Source of the DNA: Candidatus Poriferisocius sp.
Lineage (GTDB): Bacteria; Actinomycetota; Acidimicrobiia; Acidimicrobiales; Bin134
Direction: 5' to 3'
NCBI GenBank assembly: GCA_965221865.1
Contig: OZ244918.1
Coordinates: 1,702,816 to 1,766,815 of the forward strand
Length of the DNA stretch: 64,000 nt
The position numbers and the translations under genes are program-made. The notes beneath the pieces are model-generated. The model did no database searches, was not told the DNA's origin, and saw only the letters and a program-made list of their open reading frames with translations. Shown here in pieces: positions 1 to 52,278 of this stretch. Within the stretch, counting starts at the first letter, position 1. Every line of letters begins with the position of its first letter.

Positions 1-127
1 GCGGACACTTGCCTAGACTACTTGCAGCCCGTGTCAGCTTTAGATCAAAGCACAAACGAACTCCTCATGTTTTAGCGTTATTTTGCTGAGGATGCCTGCT
101 CTGCTAGAGGTATGTTTGATGGTATGT

Positions 128-1073
128 CTAAATCAAGGTGAACTCCGTCGGTGGTTGCGACGGGTCGGCTATTATAATTGGTTTGATGTTTCTGCGGCCT
201 ATCGGTGGAGGGTTTTGTTGTGGCATAGTGTTTGGGTGTGTGGAGGCGCGCATGTTTTGAGGTGTTGTTACAGCAGGGGTTTATGTAACGCTGAGGTTGT
301 TTTGTGTTTGGGCAGGTGAAAGATCGGTTTGGTGAGTGTTTATTGCTTCACGCTATTGCAGCGGAGTTACGTTGTTTGGGTTACCGGATTTGTGTTGAGA
401 CGATTTGCTGGGCTTGTTATGATTTTTCTAACCGTAGCGGTTTACTATCAAAATGTTGGAAACTGCTGCCTCGTGCTTGGCGGCGTAAACCACCTAGCCG
501 CAGTTCGCAGGGTAGGTGCAGTGTTTTAGGTGATTGGTGTCGTATATGTGAGCGTCCCAGCGAAGCTGATAGCTGGGTTGAGCCTGGTCATTAGCAAGAC
601 GATCTGATTATCACTCAAAAACCATCGCTCAGCTATAGCTACTTTAGCAGAACGCAAAAGCCGTCAAACCTTCAGTGTCAGCTTAGGTGACAGCTACGAT
701 GCTGTTAACACTGCTAACACCTGTCACCCAAGCACTAGCCCAGCAACTTGCACATATGGTGAAAACCCTTCATCTGAGACCACCGCAGAGAAATGACACG
801 GTTAGCTGACATAGAAAAAACCGTCGGTATCAAAGTCTACTTCTGTGAACCCCACTCACCCTCACAACAACCCAACCAACAAACAAACCAACACCTATCC
901 TACGCCGCCCGCTACCCAAACACACCAACCCCAACACCACCAAACCCCTACCAGCAACCATCAAAGACCATATCAAGGTAAACTCCATCAGTGGTTGCAA
1001 CAGGTTAACTGTTAGGACTGGTTTGAATTATCAGCAACCGACCGATGGAATTTACCAATTTGTTGATGGGTGA
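128..1073 (+). mobile_element. Degenerate IS30-family element, copy 1 (transposase pseudogene)
   Basis: IS30-type transposase landmarks appear in order but are spread over several frames with stops. They are ETICWACY, ICERPSEADSWVEPGH*QDDLI (GHWEGDLI box with TGG->TAG), AIATLAERKSR, VYFCEPHSPSQQ (SPWQRG.NEN box) and the LNYQQPTDGIYQF C-terminus. About 97% identical to 2956-3612. Confidence 0.7.
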
Positions 1074-1098
1074 GCCTTGACAGTTTAAGCTTTTTGTT

Positions 1099-1794
1099 AT
1101 GACATACAGTAAGCATTTTTCGCGGCTTCGCATTGTTGCAGCAACCCTTATGGCAGTTGTCCTAGTATCTTTTGTTTTCACAGGGGTGGTTTCAGCTGAT
1201 CCAAAAGCAGATGGCTCGCAGGAGGAGCCTACAAAAGAGACTCCCACAAGCGAAGAGCGCCCCGACGATAACGGTGAGACCAACTCACGACACGAAAATA
1301 AAGAGCCTCAAGATGAAAAATCAGAAGATACCAAAAACAATCATAATCCTCAGGGTGACGAGCAGCCTCAAGATATTCAATTTGATGCAATATGTATATT
1401 GGGGGTTGGCTTTTGTGGCAGTAATGATCCCAAACCTCAGACAGATACCGGTTATAAAAATTGTGGAGGGTTTTTGCTTTCCCAAGTAGGTCTAACTTAT
1501 AGAGCGAATGGCACGAGCTATACTGCTATTCATGCTGTACCAACCAGGTTCGGTAGACTACTGTCAGGATCGTCATATTTAACCATGTACAATGATATAA
1601 GAGGTTGTTTAAATAAGTATAGACTGCTAGAAAGTGTAAAAGTGAGAAGTTGGACATCAATTAGGCAACAGTTAAGCTGCCATCTTCTTGGACAATATTT
1701 TGGTGGAGGAGGTTCAACATGGGATCTAGAAGGATATCGTGATGCTAATTATATTTGGTTAGCTAATGTGGGTGATCATATGTGTAATTGGTAG
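1099..1794 (+). CDS. Secreted protein, DUF2599-like C-terminal domain
   Basis: N-terminal signal peptide (RLRIVAATLMAVVLVSFVFTGVVSA), an acidic low-complexity linker, and a C-terminal region with Q..SCH...WDLEG.R...CNW resembling DUF2599. AT-rich relative to the rest of the window. Confidence 0.5.
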   Translation: MTYSKHFSRLRIVAATLMAVVLVSFVFTGVVSADPKADGSQEEPTKETPTSEERPDDNGETNSRHENKEPQDEKSEDTKNNHNPQGDEQPQDIQFDAICILGVGFCGSNDPKPQTDTGYKNCGGFLLSQVGLTYRANGTSYTAIHAVPTRFGRLLSGSSYLTMYNDIRGCLNKYRLLESVKVRSWTSIRQQLSCHLLGQYFGGGGSTWDLEGYRDANYIWLANVGDHMCNW

Positions 1795-1830
1795 TTTCAA
1801 AAAACTCTAAGCTAGTGTGAAACAGTATTA

Positions 1831-2406
1831 ATGCAACACTATATTGTAAGTAGTCGGTATTACTGGATATTTCACATTAAGCGCCGGCTGTTTGGTTGGT
1901 TATACCATGAGGATAGTCTTGACAAAATCCTGATTCCATGGATTATAGTTTCTCTAGCAATATCATTAGTTCCATTTCATTTATGGCATGTTATTGCAGT
2001 TTTTTTATTATTATTTTATGGGTTTTTCTATCTTAAGATTTCAACTGAGAAAGATTGCAGTGACCTTATCAGGCCATATTGGATGGAACAGCTGCGTACT
2101 CCAGCATTAGTACGTCTTTGGATTCTTGTAACATATTCAGCATGGAGAACAGGTGTATCATTTATTACTGGCTCTGCTCCTAGCTATGAACGTTTGGTTG
2201 ATTTAGAGAAAGGAATTGTTATTCCTTCAACTATGTTTTATATTTGGAAAATAGGTGCTTGGGGTATAGTGATAATTTCAATACTATTTTCAATACAATT
2301 TGCATGGTGGGTGCGCTGGAAACCAATTCTTATCGTAGCTATAATGCTTGTACCAGTTCAATTATGGGTTTGGACTAATCGGATATCGCATGGCCTCATA
2401 TTTTGA
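1831..2406 (+). CDS. Integral membrane protein, unknown function
   Basis: 191-aa ORF with about five hydrophobic helices. AT-rich and co-oriented with 1099-1794. Confidence 0.5.
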   Translation: MQHYIVSSRYYWIFHIKRRLFGWLYHEDSLDKILIPWIIVSLAISLVPFHLWHVIAVFLLLFYGFFYLKISTEKDCSDLIRPYWMEQLRTPALVRLWILVTYSAWRTGVSFITGSAPSYERLVDLEKGIVIPSTMFYIWKIGAWGIVIISILFSIQFAWWVRWKPILIVAIMLVPVQLWVWTNRISHGLIF

Positions 2407-2460
2407 GCCTCAGCGATTTTGTAGGGTGAAGGTTGTTTAGAGATCGGCTATTGCAGTGCA

Positions 2461-2487
2461 GAGCTAACAACCTCTATGGACACTACA
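2461..2487. repeat. 27-bp perfect direct repeat, copy a (gagctaacaacctctatggacactaca)
   Basis: The identical 27-mer occurs again at 4030-4056. The pair brackets IS30-like copy 2 and a 330-bp remnant. Confidence 0.9.
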
Positions 2488-2549
2488 CCTAGCAGGGCAG
2501 GCTCTTCAGCAAAATAATGCTAAAAAATGAGGAGTTCATTTGTGCTTTG

Positions 2550-3698
2550 GCAAGCTCTAGTGGTGGTCGCGACATAGTTGATTGTATATGGTTTGGGCTG
2601 TGTTCGGGTGGTGGAGTTTTCTGGGCATGTTGTTTGGTGAACTCCGTCGGTGGTCGCGACGGGTCGGCTATTATGGTCGGTTTGATGTTTCTGCGGCCTA
2701 TCGTTGGAGGGTTTTGTTGTGGCATAGTGTTTGGGTGTGTGGGGGCGCGCATGTTTTGAGGTGTTGTTACAGCAGGGTTTGAGTGATGCTGGGTTTGGGA
2801 AGTGTTTGGGTAGGAGTCGGGTAACGGTGTGGTGGGAACAGAAGCGTTTCGTTCAGGGCGCGTATCATGCTGAAACCGCTCAAAATGGGGCTGATGGGAA
2901 AGCGTTACGACCGAGGCTGTGTGAACTGGTTGTAGATGGTGAACTTGTTTAGCTGGTGAAAGATCGGTTTGGTGAGTGTTTATCGCTTCACGCTATTGCA
3001 GCGGAGTTACGTTGTTTGGGTTACCGGATTTGTGCCGAGATGATTTGCTGGGCTTGTTATGATTTTTCTAACCGTAGCGGTTTACTATCAAAATGTTGGA
3101 AACTGCTGCCTCGTGCTTGGCGGCGTAAACCACCTAGCCGCAGTTCGCAGGGTAGGTGCAGTGTTTTAGGTGATTGGTGTCGTATATGTGAGCGTCCCAG
3201 CGAAGCTGATAGCTGAGTTGAGCCTGGTCATTAGCAAGGCGATCTGATTATCACCCAAAAACCATCGCTCAGCTATAGCTACTTTAGCAGAACGCAAAAG
3301 CCGTCAAACCTTCAGTGTCAGCTTAGGTGACAGCTACGATGCTGTTAACACTGCTAACACCTGTCACCCAAGCACTAGCCCGGCAACTTGCACATATGGT
3401 GAAAACCCTCATCTGAGACCACCGCAGAGAAATGACACGGTTAGCTGACATAGAAAAAACCGTCGGTATCAAAGTTTACTTCTGTGAACCCCACTCACCA
3501 TGGCAACAACCCAACCAACAAACAAACCAACACCTATCTTACGACGCCCGCTACTCAAACACACCAACCTCAACACCACCAAACCCCTACCAGCAACCAT
3601 CAAAGACCATATCAACAACACACCCAAAAAACCCCACCACCCGAACACAACCCAAACCACACACAACCAACCATGTCACAACCACCACTAGAACTTGC
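2550..3698 (+). mobile_element. Degenerate IS30-family element, copy 2 (transposase pseudogene) with 85-bp terminal inverted repeat
   Basis: Contains N-terminal HTH-like LGRSRVTVWWEQKRF..AYHAETAQ, then the same landmarks as copy 1 (EPGH*QGDLI, VYFCEPHSPWQQ), with stops and frameshifts. 2550-2634 is the reverse complement of 3614-3698 (73/85 identical). Confidence 0.7.
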
Positions 3699-4029
3699 CT
3701 TATTTAGCAGTAATTTTTTGTCCCAGTTGCCAAACCCAATCAGGCGCATTTATAGCGTCATGGTCGCATAAAGCGTTAACTGCCATAGCGATCCGTGTCA
3801 GATCGTGGCGGCGCGGCGTGTGAAACGATGCCACCACCGATGTCGCTGCGGTGGTATTTTCATACTTATTACTCTATGAGCGTGATCTGTGTGCGATCAT
3901 TGCTTGCACAGTTCGCGAAGGTCAACCACACGACCACGCATATCGTTATTACGCATCAGCTCAGGAGTATCAGCAGCTGTGATAGTAGGAACAAACACCA
4001 CACTGACACAGGAGGCTCACCCAAACACG

Positions 4030-4056
4030 GAGCTAACAACCTCTATGGACACTACA
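4030..4056. repeat. 27-bp perfect direct repeat, copy b
   Basis: Identical to 2461-2487. Confidence 0.9.
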
Positions 4057-4164
4057 TGTAGCCGCACATAGGTAGACATATATTTAGTTTAGTACTCTCC
4101 TAGATTGAAGCTATTGCAAAGTGATGTAGATATTTTGATTTAGCCCATTAGTGTTAATACTCGT

Positions 4165-8705: not shown

Positions 8706-9847
8706 ATCACTTCAAGCTGCTTGCAGAGTTTGTCGAAGGTGGATTGTTTTTTGAGTCCAAGCATATTGAAGGCATCTGTGTAGAGTGTTTGCCCTTCAAG
8801 GGTGTTAGCGATCACTGAACGTGTGAATTGTTTGGAGACTCTTGTAAGCAGTGTGTTGCAGAAGTTGCCTCCGCTATTTTTTGTGGGTAACAAGTCCATC
8901 ACTCGCGCTAGTTCAGTTTGATATGTGTTTTGGTAGCTATTCCAGTCAAGATATCTCGCTTCATGCACTTGATGTAACACTACAAGAGTGCTTGATTTGA
9001 AATGATGTGCTAGCCGATCTAGCTCATCAATTAAGGGTGCATTGACATCAAAAGCTGTACGTAACTCTTGTAATGGCACTAGAACTTCTGCGGCAACGCT
9101 ATTGCACCACCGTTCTATCTCATTTGTGGTTCGCGCTCTGAGGTTGAAATCTGACAAAGCGCTCTCACCAAGCCAGATATGGGCTAGTTCATGTACAAGA
9201 GTGAATGTTTGTGCTGCCTGCGTGTCCGCTCTGTTGATAAATACCAGCGGTGCCACTGAGTCTACTAGTGCAAAACCCCTGAACTCTTCAGGATTCAACT
9301 TGCGGTGGGTGTTGCTGCCAACAACACCACTCACCATGACTAGCACACCGATTGCCTCAGCTTGATCACGTAGGTAGGTAAATGTACCCGCCCAACCTGC
9401 TTCTCGCTTTTCCGATCCAAAAGAAAGTGCTTCTGTAATCTCTGCACCTGCTGCAACGGGATCAACTTCAGTAGTAAGTGAACCAACTTGAGACACCTCA
9501 TTGAGCCCGATAGTACGAGCGTAATCCCGGTACCAGTCCTGTCGTTGTTGACATTGGTAAATAGTGTCTAGGAGGTCCGGGCTCGGACGAACAGCTGAGC
9601 GGTCGCCGATGGTACGAAAGTCGGGAATGGGTATGTCTTCTTTTGGTGGTACTGCCAAGAAGAGGTAGCCAACCGGCGTGCGTGTTGCCCTTGCAAAGTT
9701 TTCCAGCTGCTTCAAAGTTGGGTTCACCTCACCAGACTCCCACTGATACAACTTAGGAAACTTTTGAATTAGCAAGTCCGCGTCAAGGCCAGAGCGCGCG
9801 CGTGCCCATGCCAGCAAAGCGGGCTCAACTGTAACCTGAACTGTCAC
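8702..9847 (-). CDS. HTH (XRE-like) + ImmA/IrrE zinc metallopeptidase
   Basis: N-terminal HTH-like segment and the HEXXH motif HELAHIWLG. The usual partner gene of DUF4411. Confidence 0.75.
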   Translation of the reverse strand: MTVQVTVEPALLAWARARSGLDADLLIQKFPKLYQWESGEVNPTLKQLENFARATRTPVGYLFLAVPPKEDIPIPDFRTIGDRSAVRPSPDLLDTIYQCQQRQDWYRDYARTIGLNEVSQVGSLTTEVDPVAAGAEITEALSFGSEKREAGWAGTFTYLRDQAEAIGVLVMVSGVVGSNTHRKLNPEEFRGFALVDSVAPLVFINRADTQAAQTFTLVHELAHIWLGESALSDFNLRARTTNEIERWCNSVAAEVLVPLQELRTAFDVNAPLIDELDRLAHHFKSSTLVVLHQVHEARYLDWNSYQNTYQTELARVMDLLPTKNSGGNFCNTLLTRVSKQFTRSVIANTLEGQTLYTDAFNMLGLKKQSTFDKLCKQLEVI

Positions 9848-9867
9848 GCTCGTTTAGCCTGTATTGC
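9787..9867. repeat. 81-bp direct repeat, copy 1 (covers the real 5' end of the ImmA gene)
   Basis: Near-identical to 10611-10691, with a few mismatches clustered in the first 20 nt. Confidence 0.9.
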
Positions 9868-9883
9868 TAATACTCATTTTCTC

Positions 9884-10610: not shown

Positions 10611-10691
10611 TTAACTAAATGGCCAGAGCGCTCGCTCGCACATGCCAGCAAAGCGGGCTCAACTGTAACCTGAACTGTCACGCTCGTTTAG
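10611..10691. repeat. 81-bp direct repeat, copy 2 (orphan copy of ImmA 5' end)
   Basis: Encodes a pseudo N-terminus MTVQVTVEPALLACASERSG on the minus strand. Lies between vapB and the ABC ATPase stop. Confidence 0.9.
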
Positions 10692-10713
10692 CCTGTATTG
10701 CAAATGGTGTTTA

Positions 10714-43696: not shown

Positions 43697-43860
43697 GCCC
43701 TAAAGACTACACCCAATTGACAGACTTGCTAAAGAGCAGTGTATTTACAAATAGGGGGGGGGCAGCTCACTGTTGAGTTTTTTCTTATGATTATGGTGGT
43801 GTTGTTGGTTGGGGGTGGGGTTGTGGTATGCTTTTTGGATGCGTTTTTTCGGGTTTTTAG

Positions 43861-46800
43861 TTGGTGGTGTTGTGTGTGGGTTTGCGCGTCTTGTTGCTGT
43901 TGTGGGGGGGGGGGGGGGCAGGTTTGGTGAGGTGTCTGAGGTTGGGTGGTTGGTTGCGTAAGGTTTTGCGCGTGCGGGGGTTTGTTGCTGCGGCACTGGC
44001 CGCGGTGTTGTTTGGGGTGTTGTTTGGGGTGTTGGCGCCTGGTTCTGTTGGGGCGCAAACTTCGTCTGTGGTGTCTTCTACTGGTGATAGTGCGGTGGAG
44101 GTAGGCGAGGGTTCCGTGGCTGTTGTTGGGTTTAGTGTGTCGCCTCCGGTGGATTCGGAGGTGTGGCTTCGGTTTTGTTTTGAGAGTTCTTTAGCTGATT
44201 CTAATTTTTCTAATCTGCAGACTCAAATTGGTAATATGAACGTGTCTTTGGATAATAATGGTTGTTTTGATGGCCAGACGGTAACTGTTACCGTGGCCGG
44301 GGCGACGACTCAGTCAGCTACTATTAGGTTTCAGCCTTTGACTAATACGGTGGATGATCTTGATGAGGTTGTTACTGTTACGGTGAGTGAGGATCCTGAT
44401 AATCCGTTGCCTGATGGTGTAAGTATCGATGCTGAGGCTGATTCGGTGTCGAGGAAGATTGTGGATGAAGATCCGACGGTGGTGTCGTTGGCTCGTTCGG
44501 GTTCGGGGGCGATCACCGAAGGCGGGTCAGCGGAGTTAACGGTGAGTTTGGGTCGTGAGCTTGTTGCGGGTGAGATGGTGGGTGTGCCGTTGGCTATTAG
44601 CGGTACGAATGTGACGACCGCGGACTATGATTTGGTGTTGAAGGAAGGACAGGGGCTCAACACTGGCGTTGAGTTGTCGGGTGTGTCAACAACCGAACCG
44701 CATTTGAGTTTTTCTGGTGCTGGCGCGCAGACAGCAACTTTGCTGCTGACAGCGTTGCTAAATAATGATACGGGTGCTGAAACAGTAACAGTCGCGTTGG
44801 GGCCTGATGATGCGACTGCTAACGGTTTTGATCGCCCAGCGTTAGAGACGAACGTAAGTGGCGGTGTTAACCGGTCAAGCACGCAGAATAGTGTGAATGT
44901 GACAGTGAACGATCCTGCTGCGCCTGCTGCGCCTAGGTTATCGTTGGCTCAAGCTGGTGATGGGCAGGTGTATTTGTCGTGGGCTAATCCGGTTAATAGT
45001 TTGATTACTGGTTATGAGTTTCAACGCCGCCCAAGCGGCGGTGAGTGGGGTTCAGCGAAAGGGATTGTTGGTAGTAACGCTAATACCATTACTTATGTGG
45101 TAACCGGTCTCACTAATGACACGGCTTACACTTTCCGGGTGCGCGCTGTGTCTGGTAATACGGATGGGGCGTGGTCGGATGCGTCTGCTGCTGTGACACC
45201 AACGTCTGCTTCTACTGCTAGACCGGCTGTTCCAACGAATTTGGCGGCTGTTGCCGGTGACTCACAAGTAGTGTTAACGTGGGATAACCCGGGTAACACG
45301 GCGATTACTAGTTATGAGGTTCGTCAAAGAACTGGGTCCGCTGATTGGGGTACGTGGGCTGCTATTGCTTCTAGCAGCGCTACTACTGTTACCCATACTG
45401 TTACCGGGTTAACTAACGGTGTGACATATCAGTTTCAAGTACGTGCCGCTACTGGAAACCAAGACGCGTTGAAAAGTTTAACGCCAACAGATTTTTTCGC
45501 TGAAGCTACCCCCAGACCGGCACCACCAACGTTGCTGGTGTCGTCAAGGTCTGCGTTGCGGGTGCCTGAGGGGACGACAACTTTAGGGTATAATATTGTG
45601 TTGTCCCGGGCGTTGACGGCTGATGATCCTGCTGTGTTGGAGTTTGAGATAGCTGTTTCTGGCACTGCTACGCGTGGTACGGATTACTCGTTTTCGTCTG
45701 ATTCTAATTTGAGTGGCACAGGTGTGAGTGTGGTTAACACTGCGGGTAAGGGTAACCCTGTGATTCGTATTGACCGGGCCGCGTTCGGTCTCACTCGAAG
45801 AGGTAGCACTGCTGGGTTGATTATCAACGTGAATCCTGATAGTGATACGGAATCGACTGATGAGACGATTGTACTAACAACACCAGGCACCACCCTCACC
45901 CACATGATTTATGATGCGCCTGCGTCTGTTGAAGCTAAGTTCGCTTTAGCTTCTTCTACTTACGCTGAAGGTTTCGGTCCTTTAACGGTTGTTGTTCAAT
46001 TGAGCGCGTTAACAGGCCGGGATTTGGTGTTCCCCATATTATACCCGTCGGCTACTACAACAGCGGTAGCGAATGTTGATTACACACCGGTTAACAGTTT
46101 CACGGTGAAAGCTAATGGGCAGTTAACTCATTCTTTGGTTATTCCTTATGTTGATAATGATGTTGATGAGCCTAATAAAACGTTGTCTGTGATGTTGGGT
46201 GCTGCGCCTTCGGGTGCTACTAAGGCCACAACAGACACTATGACGGTGACTATTGCTGATAATGATGCAACAACAGTCGCTTTAGCGGTGGCAGATACTA
46301 CGTTGCGTGAAGACACTGACACTCGTTTGACTGTCACTTTGAGTCGTGATTTAGTGGCTGGTGAAATAGTGCGGGTGCCTTTGACTGTAAGCGGAACTGG
46401 TGTGACAGCTGATGATTACACGTTGGAGTTGGCTTCGGATGCGGGGTTGAACACGGGTGTTAGGTTGAACATTGCCTCTCCTTTTAGTGCTGCTTCACCG
46501 CAGGTAGTGTTCACAGGTAGTAGCGGCACCGAACAGGTCGCTACTTTGGTGTTGAGCGCTTCCTATGATGCTACCTCTGAGGGTGCGGAGACGTTGCAGG
46601 TTGGTTTCGGTGCGGTTACAAGCAATTTAGCTCACCCGGATCGGTCTACGTTTACTGCTGCTGGTACTACTGCGGGTGCCCCGGTTGATGTGACAGTGAA
46701 TAATTTGGATGCCCCAGCAGCGCCTACAGGACTCGCCGCGACTGCGGGGGACACGCAAGTGTCGCTGGTTTGGGATGATCCGGGTAATAATTTGATTACT

Positions 46801-49800
46801 GGGTACCAGTTTCGTAGAGGTTCAGGTGACCCGTTTAGTTGGGGTACGCATAAAGGTGTTGCTAATAGTGATGCGTCTACTACGTCTTATGTGGTGACGT
46901 CTTTGACTAATAGCACGGAGTACAGTTTTCAGGTACGCGCTTTAATTAACAGTGTGGAAGGTGCTTGGTCTAGCACAGTTAAAGCTACTCCTACGTCTAG
47001 TTCTACTGCTCCTCCGGCTGCTCCTTCAAACGTCACCGCCACAGCTGGTGACACACAAGTAGTATTAACGTGGGCTAACCCAGGTAACGCGGCTATTACC
47101 GGCTATGAGGTGCGCCAGCGTGCCGGGTCTTCTGGTAGTTGGGGTTCGTGGGCTGCTATTGCTTCAAGCAGCGCTACTACTGTTACCCACACTGCAACCG
47201 GGTTAACTAACGGCATTGAGTATAGTTTTGAGGTGCGCGCGGTTGCGGGCACAACACAAGGCGCAGCGTCGGTGACAGTAACCGCGACGCCGATGATTGA
47301 ACCGCCTATTTTGAATCTTTTTCGGCGTCCCCCAGCTAGGTTGCCTGAAGGTACAATAACCGATACCAATTTTGATTTCAGGTTGTCCCGGGCGTTGACT
47401 TCAGATGATCCTGCTTTAGTGGATTTGGAAGTAGCAGTTTCGGGTACTGCTACGCGTAACGTTGATTATCAGTTTTTTAGTAGTGGAACGGTTGCGGGTG
47501 TGTCTGTGTTGAACACAGCCGGTACAGGTAATCTTGTGCTTCGCATTAATCGGGCGACGTTCGGTACTACCAGTCAGGCCGTGTCGGTGAAGTTGGGTAT
47601 AAGAGTTCTGCCAGACAACACGGTGGAGTCGTCTGATGAGACGATTATTCTCACACCAGCGGGTGGTAGCGCGCGTACTTTTAGTGTTTATGATGCGCCA
47701 GCGTCGGTGGAAGTCAATGTTGAACAAAGCAGGCTTCGTGCTTCAACTCTTGAGAACCGTTCTTTGCATTTAACCCTTGTTTTAGACGCTGCTACTGGTA
47801 AGGATTTAGTGTTTCCTGTTTCGTATTCTGGTACAGCAACATCAGGGTCAGATTACACACCGGTTGATAGTTTCACGGTGAAAGCTAACGGGCGGTTAAC
47901 TCATTCTTTGGTTATTCCTTATGTTGATGATGATGTTGATGAGACTAACGAAACGGTGACAGTAATGTTAGGCGACGCCCCGTCTGGTGCTACTAAAGGT
48001 AGTACAGACACTGCGACTTTCACGATTGTTGATAACGATGCGACAACAGTGACAATGAAGCTTGCGGGTAGGGCGGGTATTGAAGAAAACACTTCCACTC
48101 AGCTGACAGTGTCATTAAGCCGCGATTTGGTAACAGGTGAGGAGGTTTGGGTGCCGTTGACGGTGTCGGGTACTGGTGTCACGGCAGATGATTACACGTT
48201 TAGTTTAGCTTCAGGTACAGGGTTGAACACTGGTGTCACGTTGAACACTACCGCTCCGTACAGCGCTGCGTTACCGCAGGTTTTGATTACTGGTGGTTCC
48301 GCTGTTGAGCGGTTTGCTACTTTGACTCTCAGCGCAGCTGATGATAGTACAGCAGAGAACACAGAAACATTGTCAATTGGTTACGGTAGTGTGGAAAGTA
48401 ATCTTGACCGGTTGGATGCATCTATTTTTTCTACAGGTGGTACTACTACTGCTGGTGCCCCGGTCACAGTTCAGATCAGCGATGAAGCTACTGGACCAAC
48501 GTTGCTGTTCACCAGGACAGGAACAGGGACACGGCTTCCTGAGGGCACAACTCTTGTGGAACACAATTTTGTGTTGTCTCGTCGTTTAAATGGCACTGAT
48601 CCTCAAGTACTTGAATACGAAATCGGGTTGGGTGGCACCGCTACTCGGGGTGCTGATTACACGTTAAGGTTTGTTTCGCAAGCACGCCACTCTGATGGTG
48701 TCACCGTCATTAACACTGCTGGTAGCAGTAATCCTGTTTTGCGTATCAACAGAACAGTGTTTGGCAGCAGGTTAACCAGGGGTACTGTTGGTTTAGTTTT
48801 GAGTGTAACAGCCGATAACACTGTTGAATCAGCTGCTGAAACAATTACTTTAACAACATCAGGCGGCAGCCTGGCTTACACGATTTATGATGCGCCTGCG
48901 TCTGTTGAAGCCAAGTTCACACGAGCCGCTTACGGGTATCAAGAAGGCAATAGAGTCTTTACAGTTGTGATTCAATTAAACGAACCAACAGGCAAAGATT
49001 TAGTGTTCCCCTTATCGTACCCGCAGCCTACAACAGCGGTATCAGGGGTTGATTACACACCGGTTGATAGTTACACTGTGAAAGCTAACGGGGAGTTAAA
49101 TCACGCAATCTCATTCCTATACAATGATAATAACCTTGATGAACTAACTAAAACATTGACTGTGATGTTAGGCGCAGCACCTGATGGTGTTACTAAAGGC
49201 ACCCCAGACACCGCAACAGTGACTATCTATGATAATACTCCCACAGCAGTTACTTTAGCCGTAAACGGTTCGTCTTCAATTGAAGAAGACACTAGTACTC
49301 AGCTCACTGTGACTTTGGGTCGTGATCTAGTGGCCGGTGAGATAGTGCGGGTGCCTTTGACTGTGAGCGGTACGGGTGTGACAGCCGATGATTACACGTT
49401 GGAGTTGGCTTCGGATGCGGGTGTGAATACTGGTGTAACTTTGAACACTGCTAACCCGTATAGTGCTGCTGAACCCCAAATAGTGTTCACTGGGGGCAGT
49501 AGTGTTGAGCGGGTAGCTACTTTAGTGTTAAAAGCGGTTGCTGATAATGATGATACTGAAACTTCTGAAACTATGACTATTAGTTTCGGTTCGGTTACAA
49601 GCAACTTAGATCAAATAAACCCGTCTGTTTTCGATGGGAGTGGTACTGCTGCTGGTGAGCCGGTGGAAATACTATTAGGCGCAGCTGTTTTGACTTTGTC
49701 TGTTGATAGTGGCACTGCTAATCCCACGGAGGTGGTTGAAGGCGAGTTGTTGATGATTACTGTTACGCGTAGCCAAGCTAACCGGACTGGTGCTGATATT

Positions 49801-51861
49801 AATGTTCCGTTCCGTTTGTTGATCGATGATGTAGGTTTAGTGGGTTTAGCTGATTTCACTATTCACAATGGTGATACTACTAGTTCAGCTAGTTTGAAAG
49901 CTCCTAACGACCGGTATGATGAACCAACTAAACAAGCATGGACAGCGGAATTGAACACTGCGTTGCTACCCGAAAATCATGTTGCTGATACATCTCGGGT
50001 GGCATTTACTGTTACAGATAATGATCCGACCACGGTTACTCTCAACGGGCTTGCAGGTGATATCGCTGAGGACACGGTGAAACGATTTACAATCACCCTT
50101 AACCGCGGGTTAGTAGCCGGTGAAACCTTGCCTGTACCTTTGGTTTTTGGTGGTACTGCTACCCGCAACGCGGATTACACTACTGCTTGCCCTGATCCTT
50201 TGCCGGTGGGAATACAATGCAATAATCTTGATACCGCTGAGACGCCGACTGTAACATTCACTGGCCCTCAACAAGGTGTAACAGCCCGTTCGGTTACTTT
50301 AACAGTCACCGCCCAAGCAGACCTATACACTGAAAACGACGAAACTCTGCGCATCGCTTTAGCACCCCTAAACGCTGATTCTGGTGACGGTTTAGGCGGC
50401 GGCGCGGTTGCTGTCAACGATTTTGATGCGTTCAACATCACAGACACCACCGACCCAGCAACCGCAATACAACCACCCCCAGAAGACCCTGAAGAACCTG
50501 TTGATCCTGAACCTGAAACAGTACCAACAACGCCCATATATCAAGTACCCACCAGCCTCATAGCTGATGTGCGCGGTTACGCTGCTGAAACTCACAATGG
50601 TGCCGCGCATGTGCGCCGTTGGCAACAAGTCTTGTTAGCGTTCGGTGACACCGTTAATGGGTTCACCGGCGCTCCGATCACTCTCACCGAAGCGCGAACC
50701 TATGCGCAACAGTTCTGGAGTGTTCGCTGGGATCCGGTAGTTGAAGCACTACAACAACTCGCCAACAACCCCCAACCCCAACCCACCGCAACACCTCAAC
50801 CCACTCCAACATCCACACCAACACCATCTGTTTACACCGTGCCAGCCAGCCTCATAGCTGATGTGCGCGGTTACGCTGCTGAAACTCACAATGGTGCCGC
50901 GCACGTGCGCCGTTGGCAAAGAGTCTTGCTCGCGTTCGGTGAAGACGTGCCAGGCTTCACTGGCACCCCGATCACCCTCACTCAAGCGCGAACCTATGCG
51001 CAACAGTTCTGGGGCAGCCGCTGGGATCCTGTAGTTGAAGCATTGCAACAACTCGCCAACAACCCGCCACCCCAACCTAACGACCCGTCGCCTAACAATC
51101 CGCCGCCTAACAATCCTTCAGTTGACCCACAGCCAAAACCTGTGCTGCCCAGAATCGGTGTTACAGCACCCACCGATATCACCGAAGGCCAAACCGCCGA
51201 TTTCACATTCACCGCTGTGTCCGCCCCCGCAACCCCGCTCACTGTCACTGTCAACATAATCACAACAGGTGATTATGGCATCACCGCTGGCAGCCGCACC
51301 GTGACCATAGACACCAACGGCACCGCCACACTGTCACTAGCTACCATTGGTGACAGCGTTGACGAACCAAACGGCACTATCACCGTCACACTTACCACCA
51401 GTAACACCTATAATGTTGACTCTGCTGCTGCGACTGCGACGGTTACTATCGCAGACGACGACGCACCAGTACAAACCACAAGCACACCTATTATTTCTAT
51501 AGCCGACCAAACCATCACCGAAGGCACCTCCTGTCGTACCCCCGCCCCCTGGTCCTGCCTCAACTTATACCCTGTCACTGTCACTTTGAACCAACCCCAC
51601 CACCAAAGCGTGTGGGTCTCATTCACCATCACCCAACTCGGACAAGGAACAGGCTATGCCACCGCGAACCAAGACTTCGCCGCACGCGACCGAAGAAGCT
51701 TCATCATCGCCGCAGGCCAAACCACCAAAAACATATACGTCAACATCAAAGACGACAACACCAAAGAACCCGACGAAACCTTCCAAATCACCCTACACAA
51801 CCCCCTCCGCGGACAAATCGGCGACGGACAAGCCACCATCACCATCAAAGACAACGACTAA
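43861..51861 (+). CDS. Giant secreted Calx-beta-like/FN3 repeat protein (2666 aa as listed; likely start GTG 43972)
   Basis: Signal-peptide-like RGFVAAALAAVLFGVLFGVLAPGSVGA-QT. Contains two FN3 pairs, many Calx-beta-like modules (..DNDATTV.., VD.DVDEPN.TL.V.L), three super-repeats and two 98-aa C-terminal modules. An AAGG lies 8 nt before 43972. Confidence 0.85.
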   Translation: MVVLCVGLRVLLLLWGGGGAGLVRCLRLGGWLRKVLRVRGFVAAALAAVLFGVLFGVLAPGSVGAQTSSVVSSTGDSAVEVGEGSVAVVGFSVSPPVDSEVWLRFCFESSLADSNFSNLQTQIGNMNVSLDNNGCFDGQTVTVTVAGATTQSATIRFQPLTNTVDDLDEVVTVTVSEDPDNPLPDGVSIDAEADSVSRKIVDEDPTVVSLARSGSGAITEGGSAELTVSLGRELVAGEMVGVPLAISGTNVTTADYDLVLKEGQGLNTGVELSGVSTTEPHLSFSGAGAQTATLLLTALLNNDTGAETVTVALGPDDATANGFDRPALETNVSGGVNRSSTQNSVNVTVNDPAAPAAPRLSLAQAGDGQVYLSWANPVNSLITGYEFQRRPSGGEWGSAKGIVGSNANTITYVVTGLTNDTAYTFRVRAVSGNTDGAWSDASAAVTPTSASTARPAVPTNLAAVAGDSQVVLTWDNPGNTAITSYEVRQRTGSADWGTWAAIASSSATTVTHTVTGLTNGVTYQFQVRAATGNQDALKSLTPTDFFAEATPRPAPPTLLVSSRSALRVPEGTTTLGYNIVLSRALTADDPAVLEFEIAVSGTATRGTDYSFSSDSNLSGTGVSVVNTAGKGNPVIRIDRAAFGLTRRGSTAGLIINVNPDSDTESTDETIVLTTPGTTLTHMIYDAPASVEAKFALASSTYAEGFGPLTVVVQLSALTGRDLVFPILYPSATTTAVANVDYTPVNSFTVKANGQLTHSLVIPYVDNDVDEPNKTLSVMLGAAPSGATKATTDTMTVTIADNDATTVALAVADTTLREDTDTRLTVTLSRDLVAGEIVRVPLTVSGTGVTADDYTLELASDAGLNTGVRLNIASPFSAASPQVVFTGSSGTEQVATLVLSASYDATSEGAETLQVGFGAVTSNLAHPDRSTFTAAGTTAGAPVDVTVNNLDAPAAPTGLAATAGDTQVSLVWDDPGNNLITGYQFRRGSGDPFSWGTHKGVANSDASTTSYVVTSLTNSTEYSFQVRALINSVEGAWSSTVKATPTSSSTAPPAAPSNVTATAGDTQVVLTWANPGNAAITGYEVRQRAGSSGSWGSWAAIASSSATTVTHTATGLTNGIEYSFEVRAVAGTTQGAASVTVTATPMIEPPILNLFRRPPARLPEGTITDTNFDFRLSRALTSDDPALVDLEVAVSGTATRNVDYQFFSSGTVAGVSVLNTAGTGNLVLRINRATFGTTSQAVSVKLGIRVLPDNTVESSDETIILTPAGGSARTFSVYDAPASVEVNVEQSRLRASTLENRSLHLTLVLDAATGKDLVFPVSYSGTATSGSDYTPVDSFTVKANGRLTHSLVIPYVDDDVDETNETVTVMLGDAPSGATKGSTDTATFTIVDNDATTVTMKLAGRAGIEENTSTQLTVSLSRDLVTGEEVWVPLTVSGTGVTADDYTFSLASGTGLNTGVTLNTTAPYSAALPQVLITGGSAVERFATLTLSAADDSTAENTETLSIGYGSVESNLDRLDASIFSTGGTTTAGAPVTVQISDEATGPTLLFTRTGTGTRLPEGTTLVEHNFVLSRRLNGTDPQVLEYEIGLGGTATRGADYTLRFVSQARHSDGVTVINTAGSSNPVLRINRTVFGSRLTRGTVGLVLSVTADNTVESAAETITLTTSGGSLAYTIYDAPASVEAKFTRAAYGYQEGNRVFTVVIQLNEPTGKDLVFPLSYPQPTTAVSGVDYTPVDSYTVKANGELNHAISFLYNDNNLDELTKTLTVMLGAAPDGVTKGTPDTATVTIYDNTPTAVTLAVNGSSSIEEDTSTQLTVTLGRDLVAGEIVRVPLTVSGTGVTADDYTLELASDAGVNTGVTLNTANPYSAAEPQIVFTGGSSVERVATLVLKAVADNDDTETSETMTISFGSVTSNLDQINPSVFDGSGTAAGEPVEILLGAAVLTLSVDSGTANPTEVVEGELLMITVTRSQANRTGADINVPFRLLIDDVGLVGLADFTIHNGDTTSSASLKAPNDRYDEPTKQAWTAELNTALLPENHVADTSRVAFTVTDNDPTTVTLNGLAGDIAEDTVKRFTITLNRGLVAGETLPVPLVFGGTATRNADYTTACPDPLPVGIQCNNLDTAETPTVTFTGPQQGVTARSVTLTVTAQADLYTENDETLRIALAPLNADSGDGLGGGAVAVNDFDAFNITDTTDPATAIQPPPEDPEEPVDPEPETVPTTPIYQVPTSLIADVRGYAAETHNGAAHVRRWQQVLLAFGDTVNGFTGAPITLTEARTYAQQFWSVRWDPVVEALQQLANNPQPQPTATPQPTPTSTPTPSVYTVPASLIADVRGYAAETHNGAAHVRRWQRVLLAFGEDVPGFTGTPITLTQARTYAQQFWGSRWDPVVEALQQLANNPPPQPNDPSPNNPPPNNPSVDPQPKPVLPRIGVTAPTDITEGQTADFTFTAVSAPATPLTVTVNIITTGDYGITAGSRTVTIDTNGTATLSLATIGDSVDEPNGTITVTLTTSNTYNVDSAAATATVTIADDDAPVQTTSTPIISIADQTITEGTSCRTPAPWSCLNLYPVTVTLNQPHHQSVWVSFTITQLGQGTGYATANQDFAARDRRSFIIAAGQTTKNIYVNIKDDNTKEPDETFQITLHNPLRGQIGDGQATITIKDND
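43904..43918 (+). repeat. Homopolymeric G15 tract in the giant gene 1 leader / extreme 5' end
   Basis: Counted directly. Lies 54 nt upstream of GTG 43972, where a signal-peptide-like sequence starts. A G9 run is at 43754-43762. Confidence 0.95.
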
Positions 51862-51882
51862 CCCCGTTGGGGGTTAGTCGTT
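51853..51882. terminator. 13-bp perfect palindromic hairpin between convergent genes (bidirectional terminator candidate)
   Basis: aacgactaacccc-gttg-ggggttagtcgtt. Both stop codons (51859-61 and 51874-76) lie inside the stem. There is no U-tract. Confidence 0.5.
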
Positions 51883-52278
51883 GGGGCGTGGTAGTCCGGC
51901 GGCGGTTTCGAGGCGAGCTAGGCGGTCGGTGTGGTCGAGGAGTATCGCGTTGATTTCAGCAAATCCTGCCTGCATTTCTGTGCGTACGCTGCTGATTTCG
52001 GTGCGTAGTTCGGTGCTTAGTTCTGTGCGTACGTTGTTGATTTCGGTGCGTAGTTGAGTGTCGAGGTTGTCTATGCGGTTGCCGAGTGAGTTGATTTGTG
52101 AGATGATTATGCTTAACAGCACAGATACTAGGGTAACTAGTAGTGTGCCGACCACCGAGCTGAGGGATGGGAGCCATTTACGTGTTGTGCTTTGTGTGTC
52201 ACCGGTTTGAGATTGCGCGGTGTCGCTCATCTCGACAGTGGTTGTTTCGGTTGGCACGTTTTGTATTATAGCAGCCAT
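51874..52278 (-). CDS. Membrane-anchored coiled-coil protein, unknown function
   Basis: AGGAGG SD, one TM (VVGTLLVTLVSVLLSIIIS), and a repeated RTEINNVRTELSTELRTEISSVRTEM. Confidence 0.65.
   Translation of the reverse strand: MAAIIQNVPTETTTVEMSDTAQSQTGDTQSTTRKWLPSLSSVVGTLLVTLVSVLLSIIISQINSLGNRIDNLDTQLRTEINNVRTELSTELRTEISSVRTEMQAGFAEINAILLDHTDRLARLETAAGLPRPND

What the first reader, a model, noticed from the sequence alone, without database searches (positions are those of the whole stretch)
128..1073. IS30-like copy 1 carries both a G+T-converted and a near-normal version of the same transposase 3' end
Segment 132-186 (G+T-rich, upstream of the transposase N-terminus) aligns without gaps to 972-1026, the compositionally normal extreme 3' end of the same pseudogene. 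There are 12 mismatches in 55 nt, and 7 are A (normal copy) -> G (skewed copy). The 3' coding part at 851-960 shows the opposite bias, with only 11 G/T in 110 nt. This turns the conserved SPWQRG.NEN.NG box into SPSQQPNQQTNQ. The GHWEGDLI box reads GH*QDDLI, where the TGG->TAG and GGC->GAC changes are G->A. The element is therefore inactivated by the same transition process seen elsewhere in the window, acting on opposite strands in different segments. The arrangement also implies tandem or head-to-tail IS30 junctions, consistent with known (IS30)2 dimer biology.
Basis: partly seen in the sequence, partly recalled or inferred. Interest (0 to 1): 0.6.

Follow-up and report, generated by a model that had tools for sequence, protein, structure and literature searches.

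The report
Decayed IS30 copies with two-ended strand skew
Two dead copies and two fragments of one IS30-family jumping gene carry a mutation bias that makes the start of each DNA strand G+T-rich; milder forms of the same bias occur in intact relatives, so the bias probably records how such elements are copied or repaired.

Summary
The alignment is real. 132-186 matches 972-1026 at 43/55 positions; shuffled queries reach at most 32 anywhere in the window.

972-1026 is not the transposase 3' end. It is 5 nt of target-like sequence (ATCAA) plus the left inverted repeat and leader of a truncated third copy ("stub", 977-~1060). The real 3' end sits at 3614-3699, with an inverted duplicate at 2549-2635.

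Two intact relatives (L031, L001) polarise the seven G/A mismatches. Four are G>A in the "normal" stub, two are A>G in the skewed copies, and one is ambiguous.

Across the whole element the bipolar bias holds. C>T, A>G and G>T dominate on the top strand at the 5' side, and their complements dominate at the 3' side. These changes caused four of five stops and removed the catalytic Glu.

The gradient already exists at synonymous sites of intact relatives:
- L031: 0.57 to 0.05.
- L001: 0.68 to 0.10.
- 78 IS30-family ORFs: 0.585 to 0.373.
- E. coli IS30: no gradient.

The copy 1 + stub junction fits a transposase-type inversion, not an (IS30)2 dimer. The mechanism is inferred: recurrent single-strandedness of the 5'-ended strand at each terminus.

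The parts
1..136 (.). Native chromosomal flank, upstream of a UvrD-like helicase gene on the minus strand. It ends in the target-like sequence AAATCAA (130-136).
   Evidence: 99% identical to sister-strain locus L046 9432-9566, which carries no IS and continues with unrelated sequence.
137..976 (+). IS30-family copy 1: left inverted repeat (IRL, from 137), leader and transposase pseudogene. It lacks 142 nt (copy 2 coordinates 2813-2954) and the last ~84 nt including the right inverted repeat (IRR). G+T is 0.68-0.80 at 137-400 and 0.14-0.20 at 837-976.
   Evidence: 90-97% identical to copy 2. Composition profile.
977..1060 (+). Stub: IRL plus 5' leader of another copy of the same IS. It is truncated near the transposase start codon and has 51% G+T.
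   Evidence: Aligns to copy 1 137-220, copy 2 2636-2719 and the left ends of intact relatives L031 and L001. Composition.
1099..2406 (+). Two low-GC (about 40%) ORFs (1099-1794 and 1831-2406) lying between the IS copies. They are absent from the sister strain.
2489..2548 (-). Inverted duplicate of native flank positions 47-107.
   Evidence: (I2).
2549..2635 (-). 'Left arm': an inverted copy of the last ~86 nt of the IS (transposase C-terminus plus IRR). This is the piece missing from copy 1, and it is less converted than the in-place right end of copy 2.
   Evidence: 86% complementary to 3614-3699 (I1). All 12 differences are transitions. About 9 are derived in the right arm when polarised by L001. 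Junction anatomy.
2636..3699 (+). IS30-family copy 2, full length at 1064 bp. IRL is about 2636-2662 and IRR about 3673-3699. The transposase pseudogene is about 2719-3688 with 5 in-frame stops, several 1-nt insertions and the catalytic Glu lost. G+T falls from 0.7-0.84 to 0.10-0.18 along the element.
   Evidence: The length matches the intact relative in L031 (1067 bp, 27-bp IRs, 3-bp target duplication).

Best explanation
**What it is (shown).** Window 137-4078 is a strain-specific insertion. It is built from one IS30-family insertion sequence present as two decayed copies (137-976 and 2636-3699) and two fragments. The fragments are a left-end stub (977-~1060) and an inverted right-end piece (2549-2635).

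**How the arrangement arose (inferred).** Copy 1 ends, and the inverted right-end piece begins, at the same internal position with a 2-3-nt overlap. Both new junctions sit exactly at IRL termini. Inverting 977-2635 restores a complete copy 1 and creates a head-to-head IRL|IRL junction. The simplest history is therefore a transposase-type intramolecular insertion of an abutted IRL-IRL junction into copy 1, which produced an inversion.

**The skew (shown).** On this IS lineage the top strand gained C>T, A>G and G>T at the 5' side. The bottom strand gained the same three changes at the 3' side. C>T reaches about 600 nt inward, whereas A>G and T>C are confined to the terminal 150-300 nt. These changes produced the stop codons and destroyed the catalytic Glu. 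Intact relatives already show the same polarity at synonymous sites. The bias is therefore long-acting and attached to the element, and it is exaggerated here where selection has gone.

**Mechanism (inferred).** At each terminus the strand whose 5' end lies there is repeatedly single-stranded or re-synthesised. One route is displacement, when synthesis is primed from the flank after the transposase nicks the 3' ends (copy-out replication or gap enlargement). The exposed strand then collects cytosine deamination, adenine deamination and guanine oxidation. A host factor amplifies the effect, for example weak repair of uracil and hypoxanthine in this lineage, whose GC content has fallen.
For: **Anatomy**
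- The sister strain has an empty site up to position 136.
- Copy 1 against copy 2 alignment.
- Alignments of IRL, IRR, the stub and the left arm.
- Junctions and the inversion test.
- The intact relative in L031 is 1067 bp with a 3-bp target duplication.

**Family membership**
- P0001-P0004 are 320-aa HTH_38 + rve proteins, 41-47% identical to the pseudogene translation.

**Polarised spectrum** (sites where L031 and L001 agree, 7 bins from 5' to 3')
- C>T: 8, 10, 20, 12, 11, 5, 2
- G>A: 2, 10, 4, 3, 6, 6, 10
- A>G: 5, 2, 1, 1, 0, 0, 0
- T>C: 0, 0, 0, 0, 2, 0, 11
- G>T: 7, 3, 7, 3, 0, 1, 1
- C>A: 2, 3, 2, 1, 5, 4, 10

**Recent changes**
- The right arm differs from the left arm at 12 sites, all transitions.
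- About 9 of the 12 are derived in the in-place 3' end.

**Tract edges**
- Edges at 976/977 and 3699/3700 are abrupt and coincide with IS sequence boundaries. The adjacent stub is unskewed.

**Intact relatives show the gradient**
- L001 third-position G+T (GT3) falls from 0.68 to 0.10, against 0.36-0.51 in neighbouring genes.
- The L031 IS30 relative and the L026 IS1380-family transposase are the two most extreme of 875 ORFs.
- In 78 IS30-family ORFs, G+T at 4-fold-degenerate sites falls from 0.585 to 0.373, and 67 slopes are negative. Against control ORFs p = 1e-11.

**Other**
- There is no TC or CpA context preference.
- Origins of the stop codons.
Against: - No transposition intermediate, strand exposure or repair defect was observed. 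The mechanism rests on geometry alone.
- E. coli IS30, the archetype of circle and dimer transposition, shows no gradient.
- The gradient increases with GC content. It therefore cannot be intrinsic to the transposition chemistry alone.
- Non-mobile giant genes in the same window show the same polarity. For 43861-51861, GT3 is 0.90 in the first 300 nt and 0.08 in the last. A transposition-linked model does not explain this.
- Copies 1 and 2 share their inactivating mutations. Their duplication needed a transposase supplied in trans or a non-transpositional route.
- About 45% of the polarised changes are transversions, and many are ordinary divergence or AT drift.
- The outgroups are only 58-60% identical to the window IS, so some polarisations are uncertain.
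Confidence: 0.5

Rival explanations
1. A chromosomal process tied to transcription acts in place. This would be deamination of the non-template strand in transcription bubbles or R-loops. It acts on poorly translated or very long transcription units, both IS copies and giant genes. Sense transcription converts the 5' part, and antisense transcription from the 3' end converts the other strand.
For: - Giant genes on the same strand have the same polarity.
- In 43861-51861, C is depleted at 4-fold sites over about 6 kb of the sense strand, as expected for non-template-strand deamination.
- Tract margins differ between strains that are 98.7% identical. L042 has eight extra A>G changes at 60282-61419.
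- Clustered T>C and G>A changes occur at 51385-51751 in L043.
- Copy 2's right end kept changing after duplication.
Against: - The sign reverses, and the skew is strongest at 3' ends. This would require strong antisense promoters at every 3' end.
- At the convergent junction 51861/51874, each gene is converted on its own template strand. Simple non-template exposure cannot produce that on both sides.
- The stub next to copy 1's A+C tract is unskewed, and the tract edges coincide with IS boundaries.
- The 34 ordinary ORFs of the window, including rpoB, rpoC and tuf, show no such gradient.
- The promoter scan found nothing.
Confidence: 0.25
2. An enzymatic nucleic-acid deaminase edits mobile or repeated DNA and thereby inactivates the IS. 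It could be a genome-defence system like fungal RIP or APOBEC, a toxin-type deaminase, or a host sponge deaminase.
For: - Changes are dense and strand-coordinated, with C>T and A>G on one strand.
- Nonsense codons were produced.
- IS copies are repeated sequences.
- The tracts are extreme, with up to 99-100% G+T at 4-fold sites in the giant gene.
Against: - C>T changes show no 5'-TC or CpA context preference (p = 0.09 and 0.45).
- A G>T / C>A component shares the polarity.
- The gradient also occurs at synonymous sites of intact transposase genes that appear once in each fetched locus (genome-wide copy number not checked), so it does not simply kill the element.
- It depends on position, not on repeat status. 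The stub and the central part of the copies are also repeated but are not converted.
- No deaminase gene was identified. None was searched for systematically.
Confidence: 0.1
3. Copy 1 carries a converted and a normal version of its own 3' end because of a tandem (IS30)2 head-to-tail dimer. The differences between the two versions are A>G conversions in the skewed version.
For: - The alignment is significant.
- Copy 1 is directly followed by an IS left end in the same orientation.
- IS30 dimers are established biology (from my own knowledge of Olasz and Kiss; not read here).
Against: - The repeated segment is IRL plus leader, not the 3' end.
- Copy 1 lacks IRR, so there is no IRR-spacer-IRL junction.
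- 4 of the 7 G/A differences polarise as G>A in the 'normal' version.
- The missing 3' piece lies inverted at 2549-2635, with a 2-3-nt overlap at the breakpoint.
Confidence: 0.03
4. A sequencing or assembly artefact, such as strand-specific damage or base-calling failure, produced the G+T and A+C tracts.
For: None directly. The related assemblies appear to be long-read metagenome assemblies, judging by contig naming.
Against: - The same tracts occur in independently assembled contigs from other samples, with only a few differences (L042, L043).
- Two IS copies share the converted state at 90-97% identity.
- The codon-position pattern (0.94 / 0.84 / 0.99 G+T) shows selection acting on the tract.
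- Graded versions occur in unrelated public genomes.
Confidence: 0.02

Closest known systems
IS30 family insertion sequences (DDE transposase with N-terminal HTH_38 and rve core)
   Same: - The pseudogene translation aligns along its whole length with 320-aa IS30-family transposases.
- Element length is 1064 bp.
- Terminal inverted repeats are imperfect and about 27 bp long.
- An intact relative has a 3-bp target duplication.
- Rearrangement junctions lie exactly at IR termini, as expected for IS30-type IR-junction reactions.
   Different: - Both copies are dead. They carry 5 stops, frameshifts and a catalytic Glu codon changed to AAA.
- The composition is strongly bipolar.
- E. coli IS30 itself has no such gradient.
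(IS30)2 tandem dimer with abutted IRR-2 bp-IRL junction
   Same: An IS body is directly followed by an IS left end in the same orientation. The reconstructed precursor contains abutted IR termini.
   Different: - The present junction is a 3'-truncated body joined to IRL, with no IRR.
- The reconstructed reactive junction is IRL|IRL head to head with no spacer, not IRR-2bp-IRL.
Strand-asymmetric mutation gradients of vertebrate mitochondrial DNA (deamination of the strand left single-stranded during replication)
   Same: - C>T and A>G accumulate on the same strand, with a positional gradient.
- The C>T component is broad and the A>G component is restricted to the most exposed part.
- There is no sequence-context preference.

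The mitochondrial pattern itself is recalled from my own knowledge and was not read here.
   Different: - Here the unit is a 1-kb bacterial mobile element.
- The gradient is two-ended with a sign change in the middle.
- The exposure mechanism is unknown.
Transcription-associated mutagenesis and immunoglobulin somatic hypermutation
   Same: Changes are strand-biased and strongest near the 5' end of a transcription unit, decaying downstream.
   Different: - The 3' part is converted on the opposite strand, and more strongly.
- Ordinary genes of the window are unaffected, including highly expressed ones.
Repeat-induced point mutation (RIP) and APOBEC/DddA-type editing
   Same: Dense transitions inactivate a repeated mobile element.
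   Different: - A>G/T>C and G>T/C>A changes also occur.
- There is no CpA or TpC context.
- The pattern depends on position rather than on repeat status.
- A graded version occurs in intact elements under selection.

Membership tests
IS30 family | Transposase with an N-terminal helix-turn-helix (HTH_38) and an rve/DDE core | tested here: met
   The conceptual protein hits rve only weakly (E = 5e-5, below the cut-off). It aligns end to end with P0001-P0004, which carry PF13936 + PF00665.
IS30 family | Catalytic D, D, E with 33 residues between the second D and E | tested here: inconclusive
   Intact relatives have the 33-residue spacing (counted on P0003). In the window both D codons are present. 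The E codon is AAA in the homologous frame, and a 1-nt insertion disturbs the spacing. The motif is recognisable but destroyed.
IS30 family | Terminal inverted repeats of about 20-30 bp and an element length of about 1.0-1.25 kb | tested here: met
   Copy 2 is 1064 bp. IRL and RC(IRR) share the core GGTGGT(C/T)G(C/T)GAC. L031 is 1067 bp with 27-bp IRs.
IS30 family | Target-site duplication of 2-3 bp | tested here: inconclusive
   The outer flanks are rearranged, so no duplication can be read there. The internal breakpoint shows a 2-3-nt overlap, CAA against AAA. The intact relative L031 has CAC|...|CAC.
(IS30)2 dimer junction | IRR and IRL of two copies abutted with a 2-bp spacer | tested here: not met
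   Copy 1 ends about 84 nt before IRR, and that internal point is joined directly to the stub's IRL.
RIP-like or APOBEC/DddA-like deaminase editing | C>T only, in a preferred dinucleotide context (CpA for RIP, 5'-TC for APOBEC3 and DddA) | tested here: not met
   - Changed against unchanged C's give p = 0.09 for the 5' neighbour, with T under-represented.
- The 3' neighbour gives p = 0.45.
- A>G/T>C and G>T/C>A share the polarity.
Diversity-generating retroelement | A template/variable repeat pair differing only at template adenines, with an adjacent reverse transcriptase | tested here: not met
   Stub against copies differs at A, C, G and T, and both copies carry derived changes. A reverse transcriptase was not searched for.
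Single-strand-exposure mutation gradient (mitochondrial type) | C>T and A>G on the same strand, with intensity graded by position and no context preference | tested here: met
Single-strand-exposure mutation gradient (mitochondrial type) | Demonstrated single-stranded state of the mutated strand | not testable with these tools
   This needs experimental mapping of intermediates or of DNA damage.

The most novel reading that the evidence does not exclude
Sponge-symbiont Acidimicrobiia have an undescribed, end-anchored, strand-specific hypermutation process. It drives the 5' portion of each strand of certain units, namely insertion sequences and giant surface-protein genes, towards a two-letter G+T alphabet. 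G+T reaches 99-100% at 4-fold-degenerate sites over more than 1 kb. Reading frames stay open, because G+T-only and A+C-only sequence cannot encode stop codons, and selection still acts on second codon positions. The IS30 copies would be collateral or deliberate targets of this process. The milder gradients in intact IS elements of high-GC bacteria would be its general, previously unnoticed footprint.
Probability: 0.25. Interest if true: 0.85.

Novelty: new variant of a known kind. Interest (0 to 1): 0.55.

Why it matters
Taken alone, the locus is a decayed, rearranged IS30-family element, which is ordinary. The two-ended strand asymmetry is not ordinary. It survives polarisation with two intact outgroups. 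It is visible at synonymous sites of intact transposase genes from two IS families in related symbionts. It is also statistically detectable across 78 IS30-family genes.

If the asymmetry reflects single-strand exposure of the 5'-ended strand at each terminus, then IS sequences carry a readable record of their transposition or repair intermediates. The strength of that record would report on the host's repair of deaminated bases. The idea can be tested by comparing IS families with different mechanisms and hosts with different repair genes.

The asymmetry also ties this locus to the much more extreme G+T tracts in the giant genes of the same window. Those tracts remain unexplained.

Tried and rejected
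- **Scan of species-representative genomes with the pseudogene protein.** No relatives were found, so no other copies from the source genome could be recovered.
- **Exact-protein look-ups near the IS.** The S1, 435-aa, 231-aa and 162-aa ORFs all failed. The region was reached only through the sister strain's S1 protein.
- **Literature searches.** I looked for a described bacterial A>G plus C>T strand-specific hypermutation, G+T skew, or anything on Ca. Poriferisocius mutation. Nothing relevant turned up. One search call failed on syntax.
- **Promoter and terminator scans at the giant-gene tract starts.** Nothing was found.
- **Tandem duplication through ATCAA microhomology.** I rejected this in favour of the inversion model, because the missing 3' piece lies inverted 1.6 kb away with a matching breakpoint.
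- **The stub as the pristine ancestor.** Rejected, because the stub carries about 10 derived changes of its own, 5 of them G>A.
- **A double-strand break with 5'-3' resection and deamination of the 3' tails.** Rejected on geometry, since it predicts the opposite strand polarity.
- **The gradient as a universal IS30-family property.** Rejected, because E. coli IS30 lacks it and the gradient scales with GC content.
- **Codon-level polarisation against protein consensus.** It gave the same direction at the 3' end but was too noisy at the 5' end.
Full report
**1. Checking the observation**

The ungapped alignment of 132-186 with 972-1026 exists as described. It has 12 mismatches in 55 nt, and 7 of them are G in the upstream copy against A in the downstream copy.

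The match is not a chance one. At 43/55 it compares with a maximum of 32/55 anywhere in the 64-kb window on either strand for 200 shuffled queries, and with 28/55 at that offset in 100,000 shuffles. Only copy 2 matches the query better (46/55 at 2631).

The homology is longer than reported, running 132-209 against 972-1049. The other counts are also correct. 851-960 contains 11 G/T in 110 nt, and GH*QDDLI is encoded by GGT CAT TAG CAA GAC GAT CTG ATT.

**2. What the pieces are**

*Organism.* The window comes from an Acidimicrobiia sponge symbiont close to Candidatus Poriferisocius. Its S1 protein is 68-86% identical to those genomes. The window is about 50% GC, whereas most of the related loci are 62-69% GC (range 52-69% among the Acidimicrobiia).

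*The insertion is strain-specific.* Contigs of the same or a sister species exist in public long-read assemblies. One of them (L046, 97% identical in flanking genes) has no IS at this site. It matches window 1-136 at 99%, then carries 350 nt of its own, and resumes at window 4079. So 137-4078 is a strain-specific insertion. The IS left end starts exactly at 137, and ATCAA (132-136) is native flank.

*Copy 2.* Copy 2 (2636-3699, 1064 bp) is full length. Its conceptual translation aligns end to end with 320-aa IS30-family transposases (P0001-P0004, 41-47% identity, HTH_38 + rve). An intact relative of the same subfamily lies in a Ca. Poriferisocius chromosome (L031 2984-4050). It is 1067 bp long, has 27-bp inverted repeats, and is flanked by the 3-bp direct repeat CAC.

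*Copy 1.* Copy 1 (137-976) is 90-97% identical to copy 2. It lacks 142 internal nucleotides and the last ~84 nt.

*The stub.* The segment after copy 1 (977-~1060) aligns with the left inverted repeat and leader of copy 1, of copy 2 and of the intact relatives. It stops near the transposase start codon. It is therefore the left end of a further, truncated copy, not the 3' end of the pseudogene.

*The real 3' end.* It is at 3614-3699, where ...INNTPKKP... corresponds to ...LNTMPRR... in the intact proteins. An inverted copy of it sits at 2549-2635 (I1).

**3. How the arrangement probably arose (inference)**

Copy 1 stops at ...ATATCAA. The inverted right-end piece begins, in reverse complement, AAACAACATG..., where copy 2 reads ATATCAA|CAACACAC.... 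The two pieces therefore meet at one internal position with a 2-3-nt overlap.

Both novel junctions (976/977 and 2635/2636) lie exactly at IRL termini. Inverting 977-2635 in silico restores a complete copy 1. It also creates a perfect head-to-head junction...GGAGTTTACC|GGTGAACTCC....

This is what an intramolecular insertion of an abutted IR-IR junction into a target inside copy 1 would give, including a short target duplication. The present head-to-tail appearance is thus a product of IS30-type chemistry. It is not an (IS30)2 IRR-2bp-IRL dimer, because copy 1 has no IRR.

The two target sequences next to IRL termini (AAATCAA and ATATCAA) resemble each other. That may reflect target preference. 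An inverted duplicate of flank 47-107 at 2489-2548 shows that further rearrangements occurred, and I did not resolve them.

**4. The skew, polarised**

*Composition profile.* Along copy 2 the G+T fraction falls as follows:
- 0.68-0.84 at 2549-2850
- 0.56-0.72 in the next stretch
- 0.32-0.50 after that
- 0.10-0.18 at 3500-3699
- back to 0.48 immediately outside IRR

The stub is 51% G+T, although it abuts copy 1's A+C tract.

*Polarised counts.* I used sites where the two intact relatives agree (744 sites, 238 changes on the window lineage). Counts in seven bins from 5' to 3':

| Change | Bin 1 | Bin 2 | Bin 3 | Bin 4 | Bin 5 | Bin 6 | Bin 7 |
|---|---|---|---|---|---|---|---|
| C>T | 8 | 10 | 20 | 12 | 11 | 5 | 2 |
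| G>A | 2 | 10 | 4 | 3 | 6 | 6 | 10 |
| A>G | 5 | 2 | 1 | 1 | 0 | 0 | 0 |
| T>C | 0 | 0 | 0 | 0 | 2 | 0 | 11 |
| G>T | 7 | 3 | 7 | 3 | 0 | 1 | 1 |
| C>A | 2 | 3 | 2 | 1 | 5 | 4 | 10 |

*Rates per available base.*
- First four bins: C>T 50/123 against G>A 19/166, and A>G 9/57 against T>C 0/49.
- Last two bins: G>A 16/46 against C>T 7/98, and T>C 11/34 against A>G 0/67.

The top strand therefore collects C>T, A>G and G>T at the left side, and the bottom strand collects the same three changes at the right side. The cytosine component reaches about 600 nt inward. The adenine component is confined to the terminal 150-300 nt.

*Most recent changes.* The cleanest comparison is the in-place right end against its inverted duplicate. 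They differ at 12 sites. All 12 are transitions, with C or A in the duplicate and T or G in the reverse complement of the right end. L001 shows that about 9 of them are derived in the in-place 3' end, as top-strand G>A x5 and T>C x4.

*Context.* C>T changes have no 5'-TC or CpA preference.

*Effect on the gene.* Four of the five in-frame stops fit the polarity:
- CAG>TAG and CGA>TGA in the 5' half.
- TGG>TAG and TGG>TGA in the 3' half.

The catalytic Glu codon became AAA. At the DNA level the box differs from intact relatives mainly by G>A. Those relatives read SPWQQPANE(H/Q)TNG.

**5.

Polarised with both outgroups, the seven G/A mismatches resolve as follows:
- 140, 150, 167 and 168 are G>A in the stub.
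- 147 and 162 are A>G in the copies.
- 159 is ambiguous.

Over the whole 85 nt the stub has about 10 derived changes, 5 of them G>A. The copies have 7-11 derived changes: A>G x3-4, C>T x2, A>T x1-3 and T>G x1-2.

The 'normal' copy is thus itself decayed, either by this genome's AT drift or by the 3'-type bias. The claim of A>G conversion holds for the 5' region as a whole but not for this segment.

Homoplasy cannot be excluded, because about 60% of ancestral A's in this region have changed in the copies.

**6. The gradient is older and wider than this locus**

The outgroup-agreed ancestral composition is already graded. The first bin has G45 C22 T19 A15, and the last has C55 A31 G21 T17.

Several intact elements show the gradient at synonymous sites:
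- In the intact L001 gene, third-position G+T (GT3) falls monotonically from 0.68 to 0.10 in 120-nt bins. Neighbouring genes sit at 0.36-0.51.
- Among 875 ORFs of at least 250 aa in 45 fetched loci, the two largest 5'-to-3' drops are both intact transposases. One is the IS1380-family gene in L026 (0.74 / 0.41 / 0.12). The other is the IS30-family gene in L031 (0.57 / 0.45 / 0.05).
- In 78 IS30-family ORFs from metagenomes, G+T at 4-fold-degenerate sites falls from 0.585 to 0.373. Of these, 67/78 slopes are negative. In 603 control ORFs the fall is from 0.477 to 0.417 (p = 1e-11).

The effect grows with GC content (Spearman 0.33, p = 0.003). It is absent from E. coli IS30. So both the element and the host lineage matter.

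**7. Mechanism**

*What is shown.* The anatomy follows one rule. At each end of the unit, the strand whose 5' end lies at that end carries C>T, A>G and G>T. These are the classical products of cytosine deamination, adenine deamination and guanine oxidation in single-stranded DNA. The pattern recalls the mitochondrial strand-asymmetry gradient, which I cite from my own knowledge.

*What is inferred.* For an IS, this geometry arises if synthesis primed from the flank runs into the element after the transposase nicks the 3' ends. It would displace or expose the 5'-ended strand, either in copy-out replication or through gap enlargement at aborted nicks. This accounts for the abrupt edges at IS sequence boundaries, for the unskewed stub, and for the presence of the gradient in intact elements. 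A host factor must amplify it, for example poor repair of uracil and hypoxanthine in a lineage that has lost about 15 points of GC.

*What this does not explain.* Non-mobile giant genes in the window show the same polarity.
- 43861-51861: GT3 is 0.90 in the first 300 nt and 0.08 in the last.
- The roughly 11,000-aa gene starting near 59.1-59.2 kb: G+T is 0.94 / 0.84 / 0.99 by codon position, and 0.98-1.00 at 4-fold sites over 59206-60411 (0.95 in the next bin).

The other 34 ORFs of the window lie at 0.32-0.68. Tract margins differ between strains, so the process there is recent or ongoing.

A transcription-linked process acting in place remains the main rival. It struggles with the sign reversal, and with the convergent junction at 51861/51874, where each gene is converted on its own template strand.

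**8. Comparison and verdict**

The locus belongs to the IS30 family as a decayed member. It fails the defining test for an (IS30)2 junction. The mutation pattern fails the tests for RIP-type or APOBEC/DddA-type editing (context and spectrum) and for a diversity-generating retroelement. It resembles single-strand-exposure gradients. My literature searches found no description of such a two-ended gradient in bacterial insertion sequences, but those searches were limited.

The identity of the duplicated segment, the direction of most changes within it, the 'transitions only' description and the dimer inference are wrong. Interest is moderate for the IS itself and higher for the general phenomenon it points to.

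Noticed in passing
window 43861-51861: This 2666-aa surface-protein ORF (fn3 and Calx-beta repeats) has third-position G+T of 0.90 in its first 300 nt and 0.08 in its last 300 nt. C is depleted at 4-fold sites across about 6 kb. The other 34 ORFs of the window lie at 0.32-0.68.
   Followed up: partly
window ~58757-61500 (gene continues beyond 64000): The 5' 2.5 kb of a giant gene (called as 11,004 aa in strain L042) is 80-93% G+T. G+T is 0.98-1.00 at 4-fold sites over 59206-60411 (0.95 in the next bin). By codon position it is 0.94 / 0.84 / 0.99, so selection still acts. The G+T tract starts right after the upstream stop codon, several hundred nt before the called start.
   Followed up: partly
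window 60282-61419 against L042: At the 3' margin of the G+T tract, the 98.7%-identical strain L042 has G where the window has A at eight sites, and no difference in the reverse direction across 60200-61300 (one G>A lies at 61398). The tract edge is polymorphic between strains.
   Followed up: partly
window 51385-51751 against L043: About 40 clustered differences are private to strain L043 inside the A+C-rich 3' part of the 2666-aa gene. Strain-wide, L043's private substitutions include T>C x10 and G>A x6, most of them in this cluster. Identity is 99.5% over the whole alignment. The cause could be hypermutation or an imported allele.
   Followed up: no
window 51849-51884: This is the convergent junction of the giant gene and a 141-aa minus-strand coiled-coil gene. 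A 10-bp perfect inverted repeat, GACTAACCCC/GGGGTTAGTC, contains both stop codons. The top-strand composition flips from A+C-rich to G+T-rich exactly here.
   Followed up: partly
window 43754-43762, 43904-43918, 59115-59121, 59147-59157: Long G homopolymers (9, 15, 7 and 11 G) lie at the 5' ends of both giant genes. Strains differ by indels next to the run at 59147. They are candidate slipped-strand phase switches, or by-products of the G+T drive.
   Followed up: no
L026 8060-9638 (minus strand): An intact IS1380-family transposase in a 64% GC Ca. Poriferisocius chromosome has 4-fold G+T falling from 0.74 to 0.12 along the gene. Its non-coding 3' end is 80-88% A+C. This is the strongest gradient among the 875 ORFs examined.
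   Followed up: partly
L047-L126 (78 IS30-family ORFs) and L127 15604-16755: There is a family-wide decline of G+T at 4-fold sites along IS30-family transposase genes. It is stronger at higher GC content and absent in E. coli IS30, IS5 and IS1.
   Followed up: yes
L006 9181-9775: In the closest low-GC species representative, a 595-nt masked run of N lies between the UvrD-like gene and rpsA. This is the same intergenic position where the window carries the IS insertion.
   Followed up: no
window 1099-2406: Two ORFs of about 40% GC lie between the IS copies. One is a secreted-looking 231-aa protein with a weak DUF7502 hit, and the other is a 191-aa membrane protein. Both are absent from the sister strain. 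They may be cargo of a composite-transposon-like unit.
   Followed up: partly
window 2461-2493 and 4030-4062: A 33-nt direct repeat (94% identical, GAGCTAACAACCTCTATGGACACTACA...) lies on either side of copy 2. It is unexplained.
   Followed up: no
window 9787-9871 and 10621-10705: An 85-nt direct repeat (94% identical) flanks a small gene pair. It is also present in sister strain L046, next to PIN and PhdYeFM toxin-antitoxin genes.
   Followed up: no
whole window against L002-L039: The window and its sister strains are about 50% GC, while most related Poriferisocius-like loci are 62-69% GC (two Acidimicrobiia representatives, L006 and L020, are 52-54%). This is a large, lineage-specific shift towards AT that may share a cause with the skewed tracts.
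   Followed up: no
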